DNA from: a virus
Virus record (IMG/VR): IMGVR_UViG_3300029813_000255
Coordinates: 16,612 to 80,611 of that record
Reading direction: 5' to 3' (one strand)
Length of the DNA stretch: 64,000 nucleotides
Positions 49,165 to 61,266 of this stretch are shown piece by piece (positions within the stretch are counted from its first letter, which is position 1; every line of letters starts with the position of its first letter). Both the position numbers and the translations under genes were made by a program. Below the pieces are notes generated by a model. The model did no database searches. It had not been told where the DNA came from and was given only the letters and a program-made list of their open reading frames with translations.

Positions 49165-50667
49165 ATGCGATTGAAATTAGAAGAGATAGGATTTGATGAT
49201 GATATATCACCGCGTTTACCAGCAGAATATACAGTTAAGAAATATGTTAATCTTTTACACGGCGGCGCACATTTTCCACCAATAGAAGTACAAAGATTAC
49301 GGTATGAAGATGGCATAGAGAAGATTATTTGTATAAACGGTAGGCATCGTTTAGAAGCATATCGTGTATACAATAATGAACTATCACAGCAAAAACTAAC
49401 AGAGAAAGTATTACCAATAGAGAATGTGGGTGTTACATTTTGGAAAGACGATTGTATATCGAAGGAAGAGTATTTTGAACCATTACTGATACACGCAGCG
49501 AAGGTGAATGATGAACAAGGCAAAACACTCAGTGATACTGACTTAGGTAGTCAAATACTAAAGATATTGAAGAATAGAAAAATAGACGAACTCAAAGGTT
49601 TTGTTACAGTTATGAGCAATGAATTTAAACGCGGAAAAAGTACAATAAGTGAAATGGATACTTCCGAAGGTACTGTTAGTCAAGTATTAGCAAAACGAAG
49701 GATGTCACGTGACGTATTGATTTATAGATTATCTTTGTTGGGGAGGAGTAATGTAGAAATTGGAGAAACTTTTAATTTAGGTGAGCACGCGATTAGGGAG
49801 ATTCGCCAAAAGTTCGGCTCCGAACAAATGGCGATTGTAGAAGAATATGAAAAAGGTATCAAAACGCCTGAAGACATCGCCACATACAAAAGTATGGACA
49901 TCGCAACTACATGGGCGGTGCTTTTGAATAATAATAAAGATAAAGAACGTTTCACTAAATTTGGTACGCAGAAACTATCTAATACGCAACCATTGGATTT
50001 TGATGTATGGAATTTTATACAGCGTGATACACGATTAGGTAAGACATACGCAGGTAACATACCAGGACAGATTGTAATGAACGTGCTGTATCGCTATACA
50101 AAACAGGATAATTTGGTAGTTGATCCAATGGCAGGCGGAGGTGTGACATTAGATACATGCTTGGTAATGAATCGTAAATGTAGAGCATATGATAAAGAAC
50201 CTGTAACAGATGAAATACAGAAATGGAATGTTGGAACTGGTTATCCAGATGAGTGTAAGAATTGTGATCTGATATTTTTAGATCCGCCGTACTACAAGAA
50301 GAAGGAAAAGGATTATGGAGAAGAATCAGTATCAGCGTTGTCACGAGAACAATACTTAGTATTCTTTGATAAGTTAGCGCATGATAGCTATCTAACGTTA
50401 CGACCAAAAGGGTATTTAGCGTTTCTTATGAGTAATTATATTGATTACAAAACACCAGAAGAATCAATATTTGTATTTGATTACTATAAATGTTTTATAA
50501 GTGCAGGATTTACACCTATTATAGAAATACAATGCCCTTTATCAACTGAGCAATATACAGGATTTCAGGTAAATCAAGCAAAAGCATTAGAGAAAATATT
50601 AGTGAGATCAAGAAGCTTGTTTATTTTTCAAAAAATAGAAAGAGGAAGTAAGAATGGGAAGGTATAA
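49165..50667 (+). CDS. ParB-like N-terminal domain fused to DNA N6-A/N4-C methyltransferase
   Basis: FPPIEV, INGRHRLEAY (ParB/Srx); central HTH; VVDPMAGGG (motif I); IFLDPPYY (motif IV). Confidence 0.85.
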   Translation: MRLKLEEIGFDDDISPRLPAEYTVKKYVNLLHGGAHFPPIEVQRLRYEDGIEKIICINGRHRLEAYRVYNNELSQQKLTEKVLPIENVGVTFWKDDCISKEEYFEPLLIHAAKVNDEQGKTLSDTDLGSQILKILKNRKIDELKGFVTVMSNEFKRGKSTISEMDTSEGTVSQVLAKRRMSRDVLIYRLSLLGRSNVEIGETFNLGEHAIREIRQKFGSEQMAIVEEYEKGIKTPEDIATYKSMDIATTWAVLLNNNKDKERFTKFGTQKLSNTQPLDFDVWNFIQRDTRLGKTYAGNIPGQIVMNVLYRYTKQDNLVVDPMAGGGVTLDTCLVMNRKCRAYDKEPVTDEIQKWNVGTGYPDECKNCDLIFLDPPYYKKKEKDYGEESVSALSREQYLVFFDKLAHDSYLTLRPKGYLAFLMSNYIDYKTPEESIFVFDYYKCFISAGFTPIIEIQCPLSTEQYTGFQVNQAKALEKILVRSRSLFIFQKIERGSKNGKV

Positions 50668-55210: not shown

Positions 55211-55822
55211 ATGAGAGTATTATTGTATGCAAGAGTAAGTACAGATGAACAGAAAACAAACGAAGATCAAATTGCTGAATTAAGAAAATATTGTGAACTG
55301 TATAAGCACGAAATTTTGATTGAATATCAAGATAAAGAAAGTGGACTGACAACAGAAAGGAAAGAATTACAGCGGATGTTATCGAATATTAAGGAAAATG
55401 CAAGCGGAATAGATGGTGTGTTGGTGTGGAGATTTGATAGATTGAGCAGAAGTTTAATGGATTTGAACAATATCGCGAAATTTTTAAACGAGCACGGTTT
55501 GCAACTAATCTCGATGCACGAGCAAATTGATACCAGTAAACCGGAAGGGAAGTTATTATTTAATCTGTTGGGATCTATTGCTGAGTTTGAAATTGAGACT
55601 ATTAAAGTAAGGACAGAATTGGGATTGAAACGTGCGAAACGAGAAGGTAAATTATGCCACCGCCCGCGTAAAGAGATAGATGTGGAATTTGTAAAGAAGA
55701 AGTTGGAGCAGAATAATTTGACTGAAGTAGCAAACATGTTGAAAATGACTCGTGTTACACTTAAGAAGAGATTAACAGAAGCAGGTGTTGAATTACAACG
55801 AGGTGCAAAAATAGTAAAATGA
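55211..55822 (+). CDS. Small serine recombinase (resolvase/invertase)
   Basis: YARVST catalytic Ser, DRLSRS, IAEFE, C-terminal HTH. Confidence 0.93.
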   Translation: MRVLLYARVSTDEQKTNEDQIAELRKYCELYKHEILIEYQDKESGLTTERKELQRMLSNIKENASGIDGVLVWRFDRLSRSLMDLNNIAKFLNEHGLQLISMHEQIDTSKPEGKLLFNLLGSIAEFEIETIKVRTELGLKRAKREGKLCHRPRKEIDVEFVKKKLEQNNLTEVANMLKMTRVTLKKRLTEAGVELQRGAKIVK

Positions 55823-56145
55823 CTACACATAAGAATACTTGGAAAGGTTTAGAACGTAGAATATGTGAGAAATGTTTTGGAGGTCGCAGAACGCCTCTTA
55901 GTGGCAGTAATTCGCAGCACGGAACTTCTGCTGATTGTATTGAAGTAAGTCCAGAATTTCAGAAGTTTTACTTTGAGATACGTATGAGACAGAATTTTGC
56001 ACATCATACCATGTTCAAAGATGATGTCGAAGCACCAGCAAATAAAGAGGATAAGATACCTGTGCTGATTACGCATAGGAAACACGAAAAAGGGGCTTTA
56101 GTGATTTTGAGAATGGATGACTTTCTGGAGTTGATAAAAAAATGA
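55819..56145 (+). CDS. PD-(D/E)xK Holliday-junction-resolvase-like protein
   Basis: WKGLERRI, RTPLSG, ADC, FEIR, KIPVL, DDFL. Confidence 0.65.
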   Translation: MTTHKNTWKGLERRICEKCFGGRRTPLSGSNSQHGTSADCIEVSPEFQKFYFEIRMRQNFAHHTMFKDDVEAPANKEDKIPVLITHRKHEKGALVILRMDDFLELIKK

Positions 56146-57509
56146 AACATAAAATAATATGCGGGGACGCAATAGAAGAAATGAAGAAGCTGTCTGAGAA
56201 CAGTATTGATGCTTGTGTTACTGACCCACCTTATAATTTAACGTCTGTTACGAAACGCTTTCAACATTCTAATAGAGAAAACGAAAAATATGCTACGAAC
56301 GCTGAACATGGTTATGGGAGAATGTTAAGAGCCAGTATGGGCGGGTTTATGGGTAAAGAATGGGATGGTACTGGTATTTCGTTTGATGTAAAGTTGTGGG
56401 AAGAAGTATATCGTGTGTTAAAACCAGGTGCTCACATCTTAGTTTTCGGCGGTACACGCACTTATCATAGAATGGTATGTGCTGTAGAGGATGCTGGATT
56501 TGAATGTAGAGATATGATTAATTGGGTGTACGGAAGCGGTTTTCCGAAATCGTTAGATATTGCTAAGAGTTTAGACAAGATAAATGGTAAAGAGCGAGAA
56601 GAGTTTGAAAATCCATTAAAAGCAAAACAAACTTCATCGCACGGTAAGACGATAGCATTAAACGCAAAAAATGGTGTTGGTATAATATCTCCGATTCCTG
56701 TATCAGAAGAAGCAATCCAATGGTCAGGATGGGGTTCAAATTTAAAACCGAGTCACGAACCAATTTTGCTTGCACGCAAACCAATAAGCGAGCGTAACAT
56801 AGCGAGCAACGTGCTTAGGTGGGGTGTCGGGGGAATTAATGTGGATGGATGCCGCATACCTTTTCAAGGCAAAAAAGATATAGGAGATGTGAATAGATTT
56901 ACTGGTTTAAAACCATATTCAGTAGAGAAGGGATGGAATAATAATAATTTAATAGTAAATGAATATGATGCAAGTAAAGGGCGTTTCCCTTCAAACATGA
57001 TACTTAGCTGCTCCTGCAAAGATGATGAGCTTGTAGAAGGTAAAGTAGGCAAACCTAAAATCAGACACCACCTTTCTGGTATCGAAAGAATAAACATAGA
57101 AAGTGCTAATTTTAAACGCATAAATTCAATGGATTACAATGATAAAGGAACAATCCACACCAACCCGAACTGCGTGTGCAGAATGTTGGATGAGCAGAGT
57201 GGAGATTTGAATCGTACAAAACAACGTAATTATACTTATGAAAACAAAGGAGGATGGAAACAAACGAGTAAAGTTAAAAATTTGATAGATTATGGTGATA
57301 AGGGGGGCTGTAGCAGATTTTTCTACCAAGCAAAAGCATCACAAGCCGAAAGATGGTTCTACTGCACGATTTGTAAACAAGCATATCCAATGAAAGAAAG
57401 AGACAAGCATATATACGAGAGATACGAATTGAAGGAAAGTACACCACAAAATATAAAAGAGGAAATAGAAAAACATTTAAATACCAGTAAAGCTAATAGT
57501 ATATTATGA
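56142..57509 (+). CDS. Beta-class DNA methyltransferase, N-terminal (catalytic) fragment
   Basis: TDPPYN, VYRVLKPG, WVYGSGFPKS, LKPSHEPI, GRFPSN, SRFFYQAKAS; lacks motifs X and I. Confidence 0.88.
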   Translation: MKHKIICGDAIEEMKKLSENSIDACVTDPPYNLTSVTKRFQHSNRENEKYATNAEHGYGRMLRASMGGFMGKEWDGTGISFDVKLWEEVYRVLKPGAHILVFGGTRTYHRMVCAVEDAGFECRDMINWVYGSGFPKSLDIAKSLDKINGKEREEFENPLKAKQTSSHGKTIALNAKNGVGIISPIPVSEEAIQWSGWGSNLKPSHEPILLARKPISERNIASNVLRWGVGGINVDGCRIPFQGKKDIGDVNRFTGLKPYSVEKGWNNNNLIVNEYDASKGRFPSNMILSCSCKDDELVEGKVGKPKIRHHLSGIERINIESANFKRINSMDYNDKGTIHTNPNCVCRMLDEQSGDLNRTKQRNYTYENKGGWKQTSKVKNLIDYGDKGGCSRFFYQAKASQAERWFYCTICKQAYPMKERDKHIYERYELKESTPQNIKEEIEKHLNTSKANSIL

Positions 57510-58282
57510 GTCATAATCAATATAAAATCAGGACTTTCATTTGCGTAGGATGCGGAATACGCGTTACAAAGAGAGTTCCAAAAAATAGAAAATATTGCTG
57601 CCATGAATGTTATTTACATTCAAAACATCCAAATCGAAAAACAGGAAAGATAGTTAAATGTGATTGGTGTGGAAAAGAAATCTATAAGTGTAAAAGCGCA
57701 TTAAAACATTCTAAAAATTATTTTTGCAATCTTGAATGTGCTAATAAATATCAATCAAGGAATAAGGATAAATATATTTGTAAAACTTGCGGTAACGTTT
57801 TTTATCGCTCTCCATATTGGAAGTCACATGGATACATTCTTAAATATTGTTCAATGAAATGTAGAAATAATAGCAAAGACTGGCATAAAGTTTGCATTAA
57901 TGGGAATCTTATTCAACAGAAAAAGAAAGGGCTAAATGCAATAGAATTGAAAGGGAGAGCAATACTTCAAGAGGCGGGACTTGAATTAGAAAAAGATTTT
58001 ATGGAACAGACACTAATAAACAAAAAATTTTTAGTAGATATTTTTATCCCAAAATATAAGTTAGTGATACAATGGGACGGGGATTATTGGCACTGTCATC
58101 CAAAGTTTAAGAATCCTGATAAAAGACAAATAAAGAGGAGAGAACTCGACAAATCGCAAGATAAATATCTTAAAAAGTGTGGTTTTACCGTGTTACGATT
58201 TTGGGAATTTGAGATAAAGAGGGAGGTGAAAGGAATTGATTATATCAAAAGAACAATACAAAAAGTTACCGGAGAAACATAA
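57506..58282 (+). mobile_element. DUF559/Vsr-like homing endonuclease with Cys-rich repeats, inserted in the MTase gene
   Basis: CxxC/YCSxxC repeats; VDIFIP, WDGDYWH, DKSQD, VLRFWE; overlaps both MTase halves. Confidence 0.85.
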
Positions 58283-58577
58283 ACAATATTTTAGAAACAT
58301 AAAGGAAAAAGATACTCTTATATTCCATCCCACAGTTAAACCAGAATCTTTAATTTCCTATCTTGTTAGGCTTGTAACACCACCAAACGGTACGGTGTTA
58401 GACCTGTTTATGGGTACGGGTACAACTTTAGTAGCAGCGGAAAAAGAAGGCTTCAATTCGATTAGTATTGATAGCAATTTAGAATATTGTGAAATTGCAG
58501 AAAGAAGATTAGGTGATGTAACAAGACAAGGAAAAATAGACAGAGAACATTCAACAATTGAAAGAGTGGGGTTTTAA
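58236..58577 (+). CDS. DNA methyltransferase C-terminal (SAM-binding) fragment
   Basis: HPTVKP (motif X), VLDLFMGTGTT (motif I); TTG start with GGAGGTGA SD at 58222-58229. Confidence 0.88.
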   Translation: MIISKEQYKKLPEKHKQYFRNIKEKDTLIFHPTVKPESLISYLVRLVTPPNGTVLDLFMGTGTTLVAAEKEGFNSISIDSNLEYCEIAERRLGDVTRQGKIDREHSTIERVGF

Positions 58578-60125: not shown

Positions 60126-60219
60126 AACGAAAAATTTAGGAGGCGATATGAGAAAAATGGAAAATGTTTGTAATTGGGAGCGAAAAAGGACTAAACTAAA
60201 TAAAAACCGTTCGATAGCG

Positions 60220-61266
60220 ATGTCGAAGAAGATATTGCCCTTGATTATTGCCGCAGTGCTATCTATATCGCTGGCGGGTGTAACGATAGCGGCGGAAGAC
60301 TTTGGCTGTGCCTGTCATTCAGATATTTCTGAGAACTTTACGACTTCTTTGCACTACACCGGCGCGGGAATGATGGGTGAATATGAGCGATACGCGGCAG
60401 GGCATTTCGGAATAGACATGAACGAGTATTATTCAAAGTGGAACTGCTCTAACTGTCATGTCACCACCTGCGAAAAGTGCCATGAAGGTAAGCATGATGC
60501 TTTTAAAGAGATAACCATTGATACGTGTGATAAATGCCACAAAAAGAAGCAGACAGCGACCTTTATTGGAGACATGCCAGCGCATAAGAAAAAAGGACCT
60601 CACGCGGACATCCATTATGAGAAGGGGCTTACGTGTATGGACTGTCATAATGCTGAAGAGCTGCACGGTGATGGAACCCAGTACAGTAGCCAGCTTGAAG
60701 CAGTCACGACAAAGTGTGAAGACTGCCACAACAGTCCTGGAAAGACAGTCAAGGACATGCCCGTAACGCAGTATTCAACCAATATAGTATCACACAAGAT
60801 GCATGAGGATGAACTCGACTGCACAGCTTGCCATTCTGGATGGTCATTAACGTGTAACAACTGCCATATGGATACCCGGAAAGGTACTCAACCAGTGTCT
60901 GACGAGTTTTATCTTGGCGTGGCAGCCGATGGCAAGATAAAACCGTTCATCAAGATGGAGGCTATATATAACGATGAGTCGTACATGGGATATGGCGAGT
61001 GGTTCTCGCATACAGTAACAGATGATGCAAAAGACTGCGTATTCTGCCACGAAAACTCGGAAGTACTCTGTGAAGGTTGTGAAGGCCAAATGCTTGGTAA
61101 AGGTGGTTCGTTCATACCACAAGATACGATAGATAAGGTTTTAGCCGTAAAAATACCAGCGGCAGCGGCAACACCAGCAGCAACACCAACACCACCAGGC
61201 TTTGAGCTGATATTTGCGGTAGTTGCAATCACAGTGGTTGTGTATCTTGCAAAGAGGAGACTTTAG
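60220..61266 (+). CDS. Multiheme cytochrome c (8 CxxCH) with signal peptide and PGF-CTERM anchor
   Basis: CSNCH, CEKCH, CDKCH, CMDCH, CEDCH, CTACH, CNNCH, CVFCH, plus CACH and CEGCE; PPGF + TM + KRR; start moved to MSKKIL. Confidence 0.93.
   Translation: MSKKILPLIIAAVLSISLAGVTIAAEDFGCACHSDISENFTTSLHYTGAGMMGEYERYAAGHFGIDMNEYYSKWNCSNCHVTTCEKCHEGKHDAFKEITIDTCDKCHKKKQTATFIGDMPAHKKKGPHADIHYEKGLTCMDCHNAEELHGDGTQYSSQLEAVTTKCEDCHNSPGKTVKDMPVTQYSTNIVSHKMHEDELDCTACHSGWSLTCNNCHMDTRKGTQPVSDEFYLGVAADGKIKPFIKMEAIYNDESYMGYGEWFSHTVTDDAKDCVFCHENSEVLCEGCEGQMLGKGGSFIPQDTIDKVLAVKIPAAAATPAATPTPPGFELIFAVVAITVVVYLAKRRL

What the first reader, a model, noticed from the sequence alone, without database searches (positions are those of the whole stretch)
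56142..58577. Homing endonuclease splits a methyltransferase without intron or intein, leaving apparent docking tails
Seen: the catalytic half (DPPY) stops at 57509. A DUF559-type endonuclease overlaps it (ATGA). The SAM-binding half (HPTVKP, DLFMGTG) restarts from a TTG whose perfect GGAGGTGA SD lies inside the endonuclease gene. At the break each half carries extra peptide: ...YERYELKESTPQNIKEEIEKHL and MIISKEQYKKLPEKHKQYFRNIK..., both short strand-plus-amphipathic-helix patterns. There are no Hint motifs (no terminal HN-C/S/T) and no space for intron RNA. Established: free-standing endonucleases can fracture genes whose halves reassemble (phage Aeh1 nrdA/mobE). Inference: the element carries a dedicated heterodimerising peptide pair plus a restart signal, a splicing-free way to be harmless and a possible natural protein-docking tool.
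Basis: partly seen in the sequence, partly recalled or inferred. Interest (0 to 1): 0.78.

Follow-up and report, generated by a model that had tools for sequence, protein, structure and literature searches.

The report
Mobile nuclease cassette splitting a methylase
A selfish DNA-cutting gene has split this virus's DNA methylase gene in two and brought two short conserved peptide ends, one for each half. The same pair occurs in dozens of other split methylase genes, so it probably lets the halves work together; the trick is published for two other phage genes but apparently not for methylases.

Summary
The beta-class DNA methyltransferase (PF01555) is split into a 455-aa DPPY half and a 113-aa SAM-binding half by a free-standing Vsr/DUF559-type endonuclease. 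No intron or intein is present.

The two "tails" are absent from the 119 closest relatives listed. They recur, gap-free, in 44 distinct tail/head pairs, and 76 of 106 other endonuclease loci carry a tail and/or head.
- Tail motif: Y.L+...P.....EI..(L)L.
- Head motif: M.IS.EQY.KLP..L...F.

Cassettes 100% identical in DNA sit in methylase genes whose flanks are only 30-80% identical, so tail + nuclease + head move as one ~0.9-kb unit.

A homologous pair (hhalign E 5e-10 for heads) flanks unrelated HNH nucleases at a second site in the same enzyme family. The pair persists after nuclease loss.

Physical docking of the tails is not shown; the two AlphaFold models are uninformative. The Shine-Dalgarno site is local to this window, not part of the element.

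The closest known cases are Aeh1 mobE/nrdA tails (Crona 2011) and the T4 MobA element (2022 preprint), so this is a new variant of a known kind.

Earlier notes of this scan describe the same kind of cassette on other DNA.

A sub-class elsewhere, not in this window, adds a covarying hairpin plus a stop-led 5-9-nt gap.

The parts
56142..57413 (+). Native part of the methyltransferase N-fragment: catalytic DPPY (56223), target-recognition region, AKASQAER, and a CxxC..H zinc-finger-like linker.
   Evidence: PF01555 positions 1-110. Profile of 14 intact homologues aligned at positions 2-422, 626 bits. Alignment A1.
57414..57509 (+). Element-derived C-terminal tail of the N-fragment, plus TGA. The conserved 19-residue core Y.LK...P.....EI...L is at 57423-57479.
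   Evidence: Absent from intact homologues. The same gap-free core is found in 44 distinct cassettes.
57506..58282 (+). Free-standing homing endonuclease gene (258 aa). Three CxxC...CxxC zinc modules lie at 57542-57862 and a Vsr/DUF559 (EDxHD-type) nuclease domain at about 57911-58234.
   Evidence: PF04480 33 bits, Vsr. All 21 invariant family columns are present. Profile versus PDB: 3hrl 8e-8, I-Bth0305I 3r3p 2e-4, Vsr 2e-4. 106 related loci.
58222..58229 (+). GGAGGTGA Shine-Dalgarno-like site, 6 nt before the TTG start of the C-fragment and inside the endonuclease gene.
   Evidence: Sequence. Not conserved in the family: 12 of 28 cassettes have an SD-like site.
58236..58295 (+). Element-derived N-terminal head of the C-fragment (TTG start). 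The conserved 17-residue core IS.EQY.KLP..(H)...F is at 58242-58292. The first 47 nt overlap the endonuclease 3' end in another frame.
   Evidence: Aligns from Met1 with the ATG-started heads of 14 other cassettes. hhalign to site-2 heads gives E 5e-10.
58296..58577 (+). Native part of the methyltransferase C-fragment: the linker remnant N..EK..L.F, motif X HPTVKP (58326-58343), and SAM-binding DLFMGTG (58401-58421).
   Evidence: PF01555 positions 141-220, 75.6 bits. Profile of intact homologues, 156 bits.

Best explanation
The region holds a mobile homing-endonuclease cassette of about 0.9 kb. It consists of a C-terminal tail-coding segment, a Vsr/DUF559-type endonuclease gene with three zinc-ribbon modules, and an N-terminal head-coding segment with its own start codon. 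It has inserted into the linker between the AKAS..ER motif and motif X (HPTVKP) of a beta-class N6A/N4C DNA methyltransferase.

Shown:
- The cassette moves as one unit between different methyltransferase genes.
- The tail and head are element-borne and conserved at the protein level.
- A homologous pair is used at a second site with unrelated HNH nucleases.
- The pair survives loss of the nuclease.

Inferred:
- The endonuclease cuts cassette-free methylase alleles near the conserved motif-X coding DNA.
- Repair then copies the cassette in.
- The two halves are translated separately. The N-half ends with the tail. The nuclease is coupled through ATGA. The C-half starts at TTG behind GGAGGTGA.
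- The halves re-form the single Rossmann-like sheet of the enzyme.
- The tail (strand plus amphipathic helix) and head (strand plus helices) act as assembly adaptors that make the insertion harmless, as the mobE-derived tails do for Aeh1 NrdA.
For: (1) Anatomy and domains.

(2) Recurrence. 76 of 106 other loci with this endonuclease have a tail and/or head next to PF01555 halves, and 56 have both by regular expression. There are 44 distinct tail/head core pairs, all gap-free (19 and 17 residues), from DNA of 26-53% GC.

(3) Mobility. L034 versus L035/L036 is 100% identical from the ERN codons to about 9 codons past HPT (about 0.9 kb), with flanks at 40-70%. L043 versus L044 shows the same pattern. 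In the window the cassette is 30.3% GC against 38.1% and 35.1% in the flanking methylase parts.

(4) Selection. Head L9 is invariant with 5 codons, P10 is in 43/44 with 4 codons, and S2 and F17 are invariant. pN/pS is 0.35 beyond the overlap with the nuclease. Tail Y1/L3/E14/I15/L19 are kept in 38-41 of 44 with mixed codons, and pN/pS is 0.65.

(5) Not native. No tail or head is found in the 119 closest relatives listed.
- Only two long proteins among the 120 best listed in a search of 5.8 billion clusters have tail and head contiguous (P0172, P0173). P0172's junction keeps the Phe that precedes the head's Met in most cassettes, which reads as a nuclease deletion.

(6) Portability.
- A second site lies after GR[FW]PANLIL in 18 viral loci, and in the loci inspected the tail is EY.L+D..TP.QL..LA.W. 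Nucleases of three HNH Pfam families (HNH, HNH_2, HNH_3+NUMOD3) lie between, followed by a head M+I.E..Y+.MP..L+.LF.
- hhalign of heads gives 96.6% probability, E 5e-10, in register from Met1. Tails give E 8e-4.
- L247 keeps both peptides and the split with no nuclease between.

(7) Precedent: PMC3045599 (tails essential in Aeh1 NrdA), and bioRxiv 10.1101/2022.08.31.505936 (MobA adds a C-terminal and an N-terminal extension that are always retained).
Against: - No direct evidence exists that the window's halves are expressed, associate or methylate DNA.
- No sequencing run was listed.
- AlphaFold2 models are inconclusive. In P0172 (site-1 tail and head contiguous) pLDDT is about 55 in the tail and 70-76 in the head. 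In the L247 read-through (site 2) there is one long helix across the junction at 65-74. Neither shows a docked pair, and contacts cannot be inspected.
- Net charges are only weakly opposite: tail -0.9, head +0.9, and strictly opposite signs in 18 of 44.
- Tail similarity between sites is weak (probability 25%).
- The first 7-14 head codons overlap the nuclease 3' end, so part of the head's conservation is dual-coding.
- In Aeh1 the tails were not needed for the halves to bind each other.
- The window's cassette is only 56% identical to its nearest endonuclease relative, and its junctions differ from the common ones.
Confidence: 0.6

Rival explanations
1. Dead gene. The endonuclease simply destroyed a dispensable methyltransferase. 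The halves are not functional, and the tails are carried along only because they lie inside the co-converted tract.
For: - Function is untested, and phage methylases are often dispensable.
- The window has another PF01555-like gene.
- Homing elements spread even if mildly harmful.
- Identical cassettes in different flanks show recent invasion, so the flanking halves may not yet have decayed.
Against: - Both halves in the window keep every motif and open frames.
- Tail and head residues are conserved with synonymous turnover across 44 distinct cassettes and a two-fold GC range.
- The head always supplies a start codon exactly where the C-half needs one.
- The split with both peptides persists without the nuclease in L247, and site-2 C-fragments starting with the head fill dozens of 50%-identity clusters.
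- C-parts of related cassettes show dN/dS of 0.03-0.26.
Confidence: 0.12
2. Native linker. Tail and head are the two halves of a small native domain of one methyltransferase subfamily. The endonuclease merely inserted in its middle, and flanking exon sequence is co-converted during homing.
For: - P0172 and P0173 have tail and head contiguous.
- MAFFT lines the tail/head up loosely with the CxxC..H.H linker of the window's clade, and HMMER aligns ORF3 from profile position 407 while ORF1 runs to 422.
Against: - That resemblance is not significant (shuffle p about 0.3).
- Only 2 contiguous cases are known against more than 70 nuclease-bearing ones, and both look like deletion scars.
- A homologous pair flanks other nucleases at a different place in the fold.
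- The window's ORF1 has both its own complete native linker start and the tail.
Confidence: 0.08
3. The peptides serve the element rather than the enzyme. For example, they could tune translation of the nuclease through coupling at the tail's stop and overlap with the head. They could keep the cassette allele immune to cleavage, or bind the nuclease, without helping the halves assemble.
For: - The tail's stop abuts or overlaps the nuclease start (ATGA here), and the head overlaps the nuclease 3' end by 20-47 nt.
- Class I cassettes mostly carry a variant motif X (HCTTKP, HPTVKS/N, NPCVKP), which fits immunity.
- MobE expression is regulated by RNA structure (PMC3045599).
Against: - The pair is kept with unrelated nucleases, and after nuclease loss in L247, P0172 and P0173.
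- Conservation is at the residue level, with hydrophobic positions spaced as in strand plus amphipathic helix. DNA-level roles do not predict that.
- The window's motif X is canonical.
Confidence: 0.15

Closest known systems
Aeromonas phage Aeh1 nrdA-a / mobE / nrdA-b 'genes in pieces' (Friedrich 2007; Crona et al. 2011, PMC3045599)
   Same: A free-standing homing endonuclease splits an enzyme gene without an intron or intein. The nuclease gene overlaps the downstream half. The insert differs in GC. [quoted passage not shown] Those authors showed the tails are essential and proposed this as a general mechanism.
   Different: The host gene is a methyltransferase rather than RNR, and the nuclease is Vsr/DUF559 rather than HNH. 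The tails here are short (about 20 residues) and conserved across dozens of host genes, two sites and several nuclease families. Crona et al. expected such tails to be idiosyncratic and undetectable by similarity. Function is untested here.
T4-type MobA element splitting topoisomerase gene 39/60 (Bonocora 2011, from my own knowledge; Manning and Atkins, bioRxiv 10.1101/2022.08.31.505936)
   Same: The mobile element consists of a C-terminal extension, an endonuclease and an N-terminal extension. The extensions are always retained. The endonuclease can be lost, pseudogenised or swapped (VSR, GIY-YIG). Secondary fusions occur. Class II relatives of the window's cassette also have a stop-led gap next to the N-terminal piece.
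   Different: The MobA extensions are about 44 aa and tied to one site in one gene, and its bypass gap is 50 nt. The window's cassette has no gap. The gap in its class II relatives is 5-9 nt, with a hairpin 5' of the stop, and is unproven as a bypass.
Fractured genes: split inteins flanking a free-standing Vsr-like (I-Bth0305I family) endonuclease (Dassa et al. 2009, PMC2677866; Taylor et al. 2011, PMC3239194)
   Same: The nuclease belongs to the same superfamily (3r3p matched at 2e-4). The gene order is the same: N-half + short extension, nuclease, short extension + C-half. These were also found mainly in metagenomes.
   Different: No intein is present. The tail (19-31 aa) and head (about 20 aa) are far too short for a Hint fold. 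They lack Cys/Ser1 and the terminal HN+Cys/Ser/Thr, and no Pfam intein family is hit. No peptide bond can be restored.
ShiLan insertion: hidden out-of-frame HNH inside an actinophage DNA methylase (Arsenault et al. 2025, PMC11855218)
   Same: [quoted passage not shown]
   Different: In ShiLan the insert stays in frame with the methylase, which remains one polypeptide. Here the gene is split into two polypeptides with adaptor peptides.

Membership tests
Homing-endonuclease cassettes that split a gene and supply C-/N-terminal extensions (mobE/nrdA, mobA/gene 39-60 kind) | A free-standing endonuclease ORF lies between two halves of a gene that is contiguous in relatives. | tested here: met
   14 aligned intact homologues of 466-608 aa. 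The halves match profile positions 2-422 and 407-516.
Homing-endonuclease cassettes that split a gene and supply C-/N-terminal extensions (mobE/nrdA, mobA/gene 39-60 kind) | Extensions are absent from uninterrupted homologues and are inherited with the endonuclease. | tested here: met
   Absent in the 119 closest relatives listed. Cassettes 100% identical, including tail and head, sit in divergent flanks. 44 distinct conserved pairs.
Homing-endonuclease cassettes that split a gene and supply C-/N-terminal extensions (mobE/nrdA, mobA/gene 39-60 kind) | No RNA or protein splicing. | tested here: met
   Rfam E-value scan is empty of intron families. No intein/Hint Pfam hit. ORFs overlap, leaving no non-coding room. 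RNA-level proof was not available; no run was listed.
Homing-endonuclease cassettes that split a gene and supply C-/N-terminal extensions (mobE/nrdA, mobA/gene 39-60 kind) | The split product is active and the extensions are needed for activity or assembly. | not testable with these tools
   Only indirect evidence: purifying selection and retention after nuclease loss. AlphaFold models are inconclusive.
Vsr-like / DUF559 (EDxHD, I-Bth0305I-type) homing endonucleases | Vsr-fold nuclease domain with conserved acidic/His catalytic residues. | tested here: met
   PF04480 33 bits (cut-off 20.6). Invariant E147, D178, H196 and D215 are present in the window protein. PDB profile hits to 3hrl, 3r3p, 1cw0.
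Vsr-like / DUF559 (EDxHD, I-Bth0305I-type) homing endonucleases | Site-specific cleavage of the element-free allele, leading to homing. | tested here: inconclusive
   Mobility is inferred from identical cassettes in different genes. The cleavage site and activity cannot be tested here.
Fractured genes with split inteins | An N-intein (about 100 aa, Cys/Ser1) ends the N-half, and a C-intein (about 35-40 aa, ending HN + Cys/Ser/Thr) starts the C-half. | tested here: not met
   The tail is 31 aa and the head about 20 aa, with no nucleophile or HN motif and no intein family.
Intron-encoded homing endonuclease (group I / II) | Catalytic intron RNA around the ORF. | tested here: not met
   no intron family at E up to 1. 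ORF overlaps leave no flanking RNA.
Beta-class N6-adenine / N4-cytosine DNA methyltransferase (PF01555) | Motif order IV (DPPY) - target recognition region - X (HPTxKP) - I (FxGxG), and the fold of CcrM/M.RsrI. | tested here: met
   The model of the fused relative P0172 matches 6pbd, 8urk, 1eg2, 1boo and 1g60.

The most novel reading that the evidence does not exclude
The tail/head pair is an autonomous, portable protein-assembly adaptor. It is a natural 'split-protein connector' of about 20 + 20 residues that works at different positions of an enzyme. Homing endonucleases of unrelated families have repeatedly recruited it to make gene-splitting insertions harmless.

Its class II relatives (not in this window) add a second device: a covarying hairpin plus a stop-led 5-9-nt gap. 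Ribosomes may cross this gap by a short hop from the Thr codon to the next RCN codon, which would restore the exact HPTVKP motif.
Probability: 0.4. Interest if true: 0.78.

Novelty: new variant of a known kind. Interest (0 to 1): 0.6.

Why it matters
Free-standing homing endonucleases are thought to avoid coding sequence unless protected by an intron or intein. A third solution is to split the gene and supply assembly peptides. It has one experimental proof (Aeh1 NrdA) and one comparative study (T4 MobA). In both, the peptides are specific to one gene and site.

Here the peptides are conserved and recognisable by sequence. They are shared by at least four nuclease Pfam families (DUF559, HNH, HNH_2, HNH_3) and two sites. 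They are also abundant: 263 endonuclease matches in one metagenome collection, of which most of the 80 inspected carry the tail and/or head.

That makes the hypothesis directly testable, by deleting or transplanting the pair. If the pair docks on its own, it would be a compact natural tool for reassembling split proteins. It also shows that phage and archaeal-virus methylases, which act as counter-defence genes, are a major playground of such elements.

Tried and rejected
Genomic context was obtained through the search for related loci and the DNA search instead.
- Sequencing runs: none was listed, so RNA-level absence of splicing and expression could not be checked.
- Tails as degenerate duplicates of the native zinc-finger-like linker: the local alignment score is no better than shuffles (p about 0.3). 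The idea is not rejected but is unsupported.
- Code reassignment as the reason for the in-frame stop in class II relatives: rejected, because all three stop codons occur at the same place and neighbouring genes are open.
- SD as part of the cassette: rejected (12 of 28).
- Opposite charges as in the NrdA tails: weak.
- AlphaFold2 of P0172 and of the L247 read-through: moderate or low confidence at the tails, and no contact information is returned. A multimer or a joined window construct could not be submitted.
- Head motif elsewhere in the fetched loci: none outside the expected position.
- Crude NG86 dN/dS on whole tail and head regions is saturated. It was replaced by pN/pS on the gap-free cores.
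- Literature: four full-text searches found no description of this methylase cassette. The library is incomplete.
Full report
**1. Observation**

The window is part of an 80.6-kb IMG/VR virus record with direct terminal repeats. A neighbouring gene carries an archaeal PGF-CTERM-like end.

- ORF 56142-57509 (455 aa) matches PF01555 positions 1-110 and has DPPY.
- Its TGA overlaps the ATG of ORF 57506-58282 as ATGA. That 258-aa ORF has three CxxC...CxxC modules followed by a DUF559/Vsr domain.
- ORF 58236-58577 (113 aa) starts at TTG, six bases after GGAGGTGA, and matches PF01555 positions 141-220.
- ORF1 and ORF3 share a frame, but 17 stops lie between them.
- No Pfam intein family is hit and no Rfam intron family is found.

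**2. The tails against intact relatives**

The closest relatives listed, besides the window's own ORF1, are 119 proteins with E down to 1e-142, nearly all intact.
- They read ..AKASQ.ERWFYC.IC...Y.M.....H.H.....K(Y/F)..LEFHPTQKP.. without interruption.
- ORF1 follows this through ..DKHI and then has 31 unrelated residues.
- ORF3 has about 20 unrelated residues and then rejoins at N..EK..L.FHPTVKP.
- None of the 119 carries either motif.
- A loose resemblance of the tails to the native linker is not significant (p about 0.3).

**3. A recurrent cassette**

The endonuclease has 48 protein relatives. It also has 26 viral, 80 listed metagenomic (263 matched) and 13 genomic loci.
- In 76 of 106 loci it lies inside a PF01555 gene, with a tail upstream and/or a head downstream.
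- The host genes are very different: N-parts range from 369 to 988 aa, and GC ranges from 26 to 53%.
- Across 44 distinct cassettes the tail core (19 residues) and head core (17 residues) align without a gap.
- In the other 30 loci the nuclease follows an intact methylase, sits in another context, or the contig is cut.

**4. It moves as a unit**

L034 and L035/L036 are 100% identical over about 0.9 kb, from the ERN codons before the tail to about 9 codons past HPT. The flanking methylase sequence is 40-70% identical. L043/L044 repeat the pattern. In the window the cassette has 30.3% GC, against 38.1% and 35.1% for the methylase parts.

The window's junctions differ from the common ones, where the whole AKAS-to-HPT linker is replaced. 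Here the tail core, nuclease and head core sit inside the clade's own zinc-finger-like linker.

**5. Selection**

- Head positions S2, L9 and F17 are invariant and P10 is present in 43/44. L9 uses five codons.
- pN/pS is 0.35 in the part beyond the overlap with the nuclease gene.
- The tail keeps Y/F1, L3, E14, I15 and L19 in 38-41 of 44 with mixed codons, and pN/pS is 0.65.
- The conserved positions are hydrophobic, spaced as in a strand plus an amphipathic helix.
- Charge complementarity is weak.

**6. Forms without the nuclease**

A profile of head + C-part searched against longer proteins found only two with tail and head contiguous, P0172 (507 aa) and P0173.
- P0172's junction keeps the Phe that precedes the head's Met in most cassettes, as expected for a deletion of the nuclease gene.
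- An exhaustive phmmer of P0173 found no further contiguous case among the best 150.

**7. A second site**

That phmmer search revealed many 170-250-aa methylase C-fragments that begin with a head-like motif.
- Context was recovered for 18 viral loci.
- The N-part ends right after GR[FW]PANLIL with EY.L+D..TP.QL..LA.W..EN.
- HNH endonucleases follow: Pfam HNH and HNH_2, HNH_3 + NUMOD3 in L231, and a 53-aa stub that reads as an HNH remnant but has no Pfam hit in L136.
- Then comes M+I.E..Y+.MP..L+.LF.KLPNPGSDEV.
- hhalign of site-1 versus site-2 heads gives 96.6% probability, E 5e-10, over 21 columns in register from Met1. Tails give E 8e-4 at 25% probability.
- L247 has the same tail and head, one stop and 16 nt between them, and no nuclease.

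A homologous pair thus serves different nucleases at different places in the fold. A site-specific structural remnant would not do this.

**8. Mechanism**

The enzyme is beta-class: the model of P0172 matches CcrM, M.BceJIV, M.RsrI, M.PvuII and M.MboIIA.
- From established knowledge of this fold, motifs IV-VIII and motifs X and I-III contribute to one mixed sheet.
- The halves therefore share a large interface, and split methyltransferases can reassemble.
- I infer separate translation of the halves, with assembly aided by the tail and head.

The two AlphaFold models neither support nor refute direct docking.
- P0172: tail helix at pLDDT about 55, and head strand plus two short helices at 70-76.
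- L247 read-through: one long helix at 65-74.

The nuclease retains all 21 family-invariant columns and belongs to the Vsr/I-Bth0305I superfamily. Most class I cassettes carry a variant motif X. This hints that the target is the canonical motif-X coding DNA, but that is an inference.

**9. What is known**

- Crona et al. 2011 (PMC3045599) showed that tails acquired with mobE are essential for the split Aeh1 NrdA. They predicted such tails elsewhere but expected them to be undetectable by similarity.
- A 2022 preprint (10.1101/2022.08.31.505936) describes the MobA element as C-terminal extension + HNH + N-terminal extension + bypass. The nuclease can be lost or swapped and the tails are retained.
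- Dassa 2009 described Vsr-like nucleases between split inteins.
- I found no description of the methylase cassette.
- Earlier notes of this scan report the same kind of cassette on other DNA. They agree with my reading, but they are not independent evidence.

**10. Class II relatives (not this window)**

In 20 distinct site-1 cassettes the head ORF ends ..N.HPT-stop. Counting the stop codon, 5-9 nt then separate the Thr codon from VKP....
- All three stop codons occur at that place.
- The downstream frame is shifted in about half of the cassettes.
- The codon before Val is always RCN or ATG.
- An 8-bp hairpin has the His-Pro codons as its 3' arm and is strongly supported. 96% of cells pair, there are 31 double-sided changes against 8.9 +/- 2.9 in shuffles (0/500), and slid controls reach only 40-58%.
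- A synonymous CAC to CAT change is matched by a Val to Met change in the other arm.
- C-parts of related class II pairs show dN/dS of 0.03-0.26.

A short translational hop, hairpin-bridged reinitiation, or a dead C-part remain open.

**11. Verdict**

The element-borne, conserved and portable nature of the tails is shown. Their docking function is likely but untested. This is a new, widespread variant of a known kind.

Noticed in passing
L005:4764-4883, L007:857-976, L009:4728-4847, L010:4758-4877 and 16 more loci (alignment A9): Class II site-1 cassettes have a head ORF that ends HPT-stop, followed by a gap and then VKP; counting the stop codon, 5-9 nt separate the Thr codon from VKP. They also have a covarying 8-bp hairpin whose 3' arm is the His-Pro codons, and an AAGGAGG just 5' of it. 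This may be a short translational hop, reinitiation, or a dead C-part. The feature is absent from the window.
   Followed up: partly
L247-L262, L136:2304-4570, L231:2555-4984: There is a second split site in PF01555 methylases, after GR[FW]PANLIL. It has HNH-type nucleases between a homologous tail and head. L247 keeps the split and both peptides with no nuclease.
   Followed up: partly
L014:2283-4783: The endonuclease sits just after an intact methylase. Both the methylase and the endonuclease end with the same ~14-residue C-terminus (..QLSSDDF.DL(L/I)I). The cassette seems to have inserted near the 3' end and carries a replacement end for the host gene.
   Followed up: no
P0126 (317 aa): An endonuclease relative is fused in frame at its C-terminus to the N-terminal ~70 residues of a Dam-family (PF05869) methylase. 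The nuclease family therefore also invades another methylase family.
   Followed up: no
L231:4333-4758: A second HNH-like ORF (141 aa) lies out of frame inside the C-fragment, in the AKAS-to-HPT linker region. It recalls the 'hidden HNH' ShiLan insertion.
   Followed up: no
P0297, P0306: Some intact relatives carry a ~90-residue insert in the same AKAS-to-HPT linker. Others have CxxC..CxC inserts there. This linker is a hot spot for insertions.
   Followed up: no
window 49930-50433 (G000:C1:66541-67044): A second, weak PF01555-like match with permuted motif order lies in a 501-aa open frame of the same virus.
   Followed up: no
window 55211-56145: A serine resolvase (PF00239, 203 aa) and an unassigned 108-aa ORF lie directly upstream of the split methylase, with overlapping stops and starts.
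   Followed up: no
window 60148-61266: A multi-heme (CxxCH) protein has a signal peptide and a PGF-type C-terminal anchor, which points to an archaeal host. An earlier first-reader note also records it.
   Followed up: no
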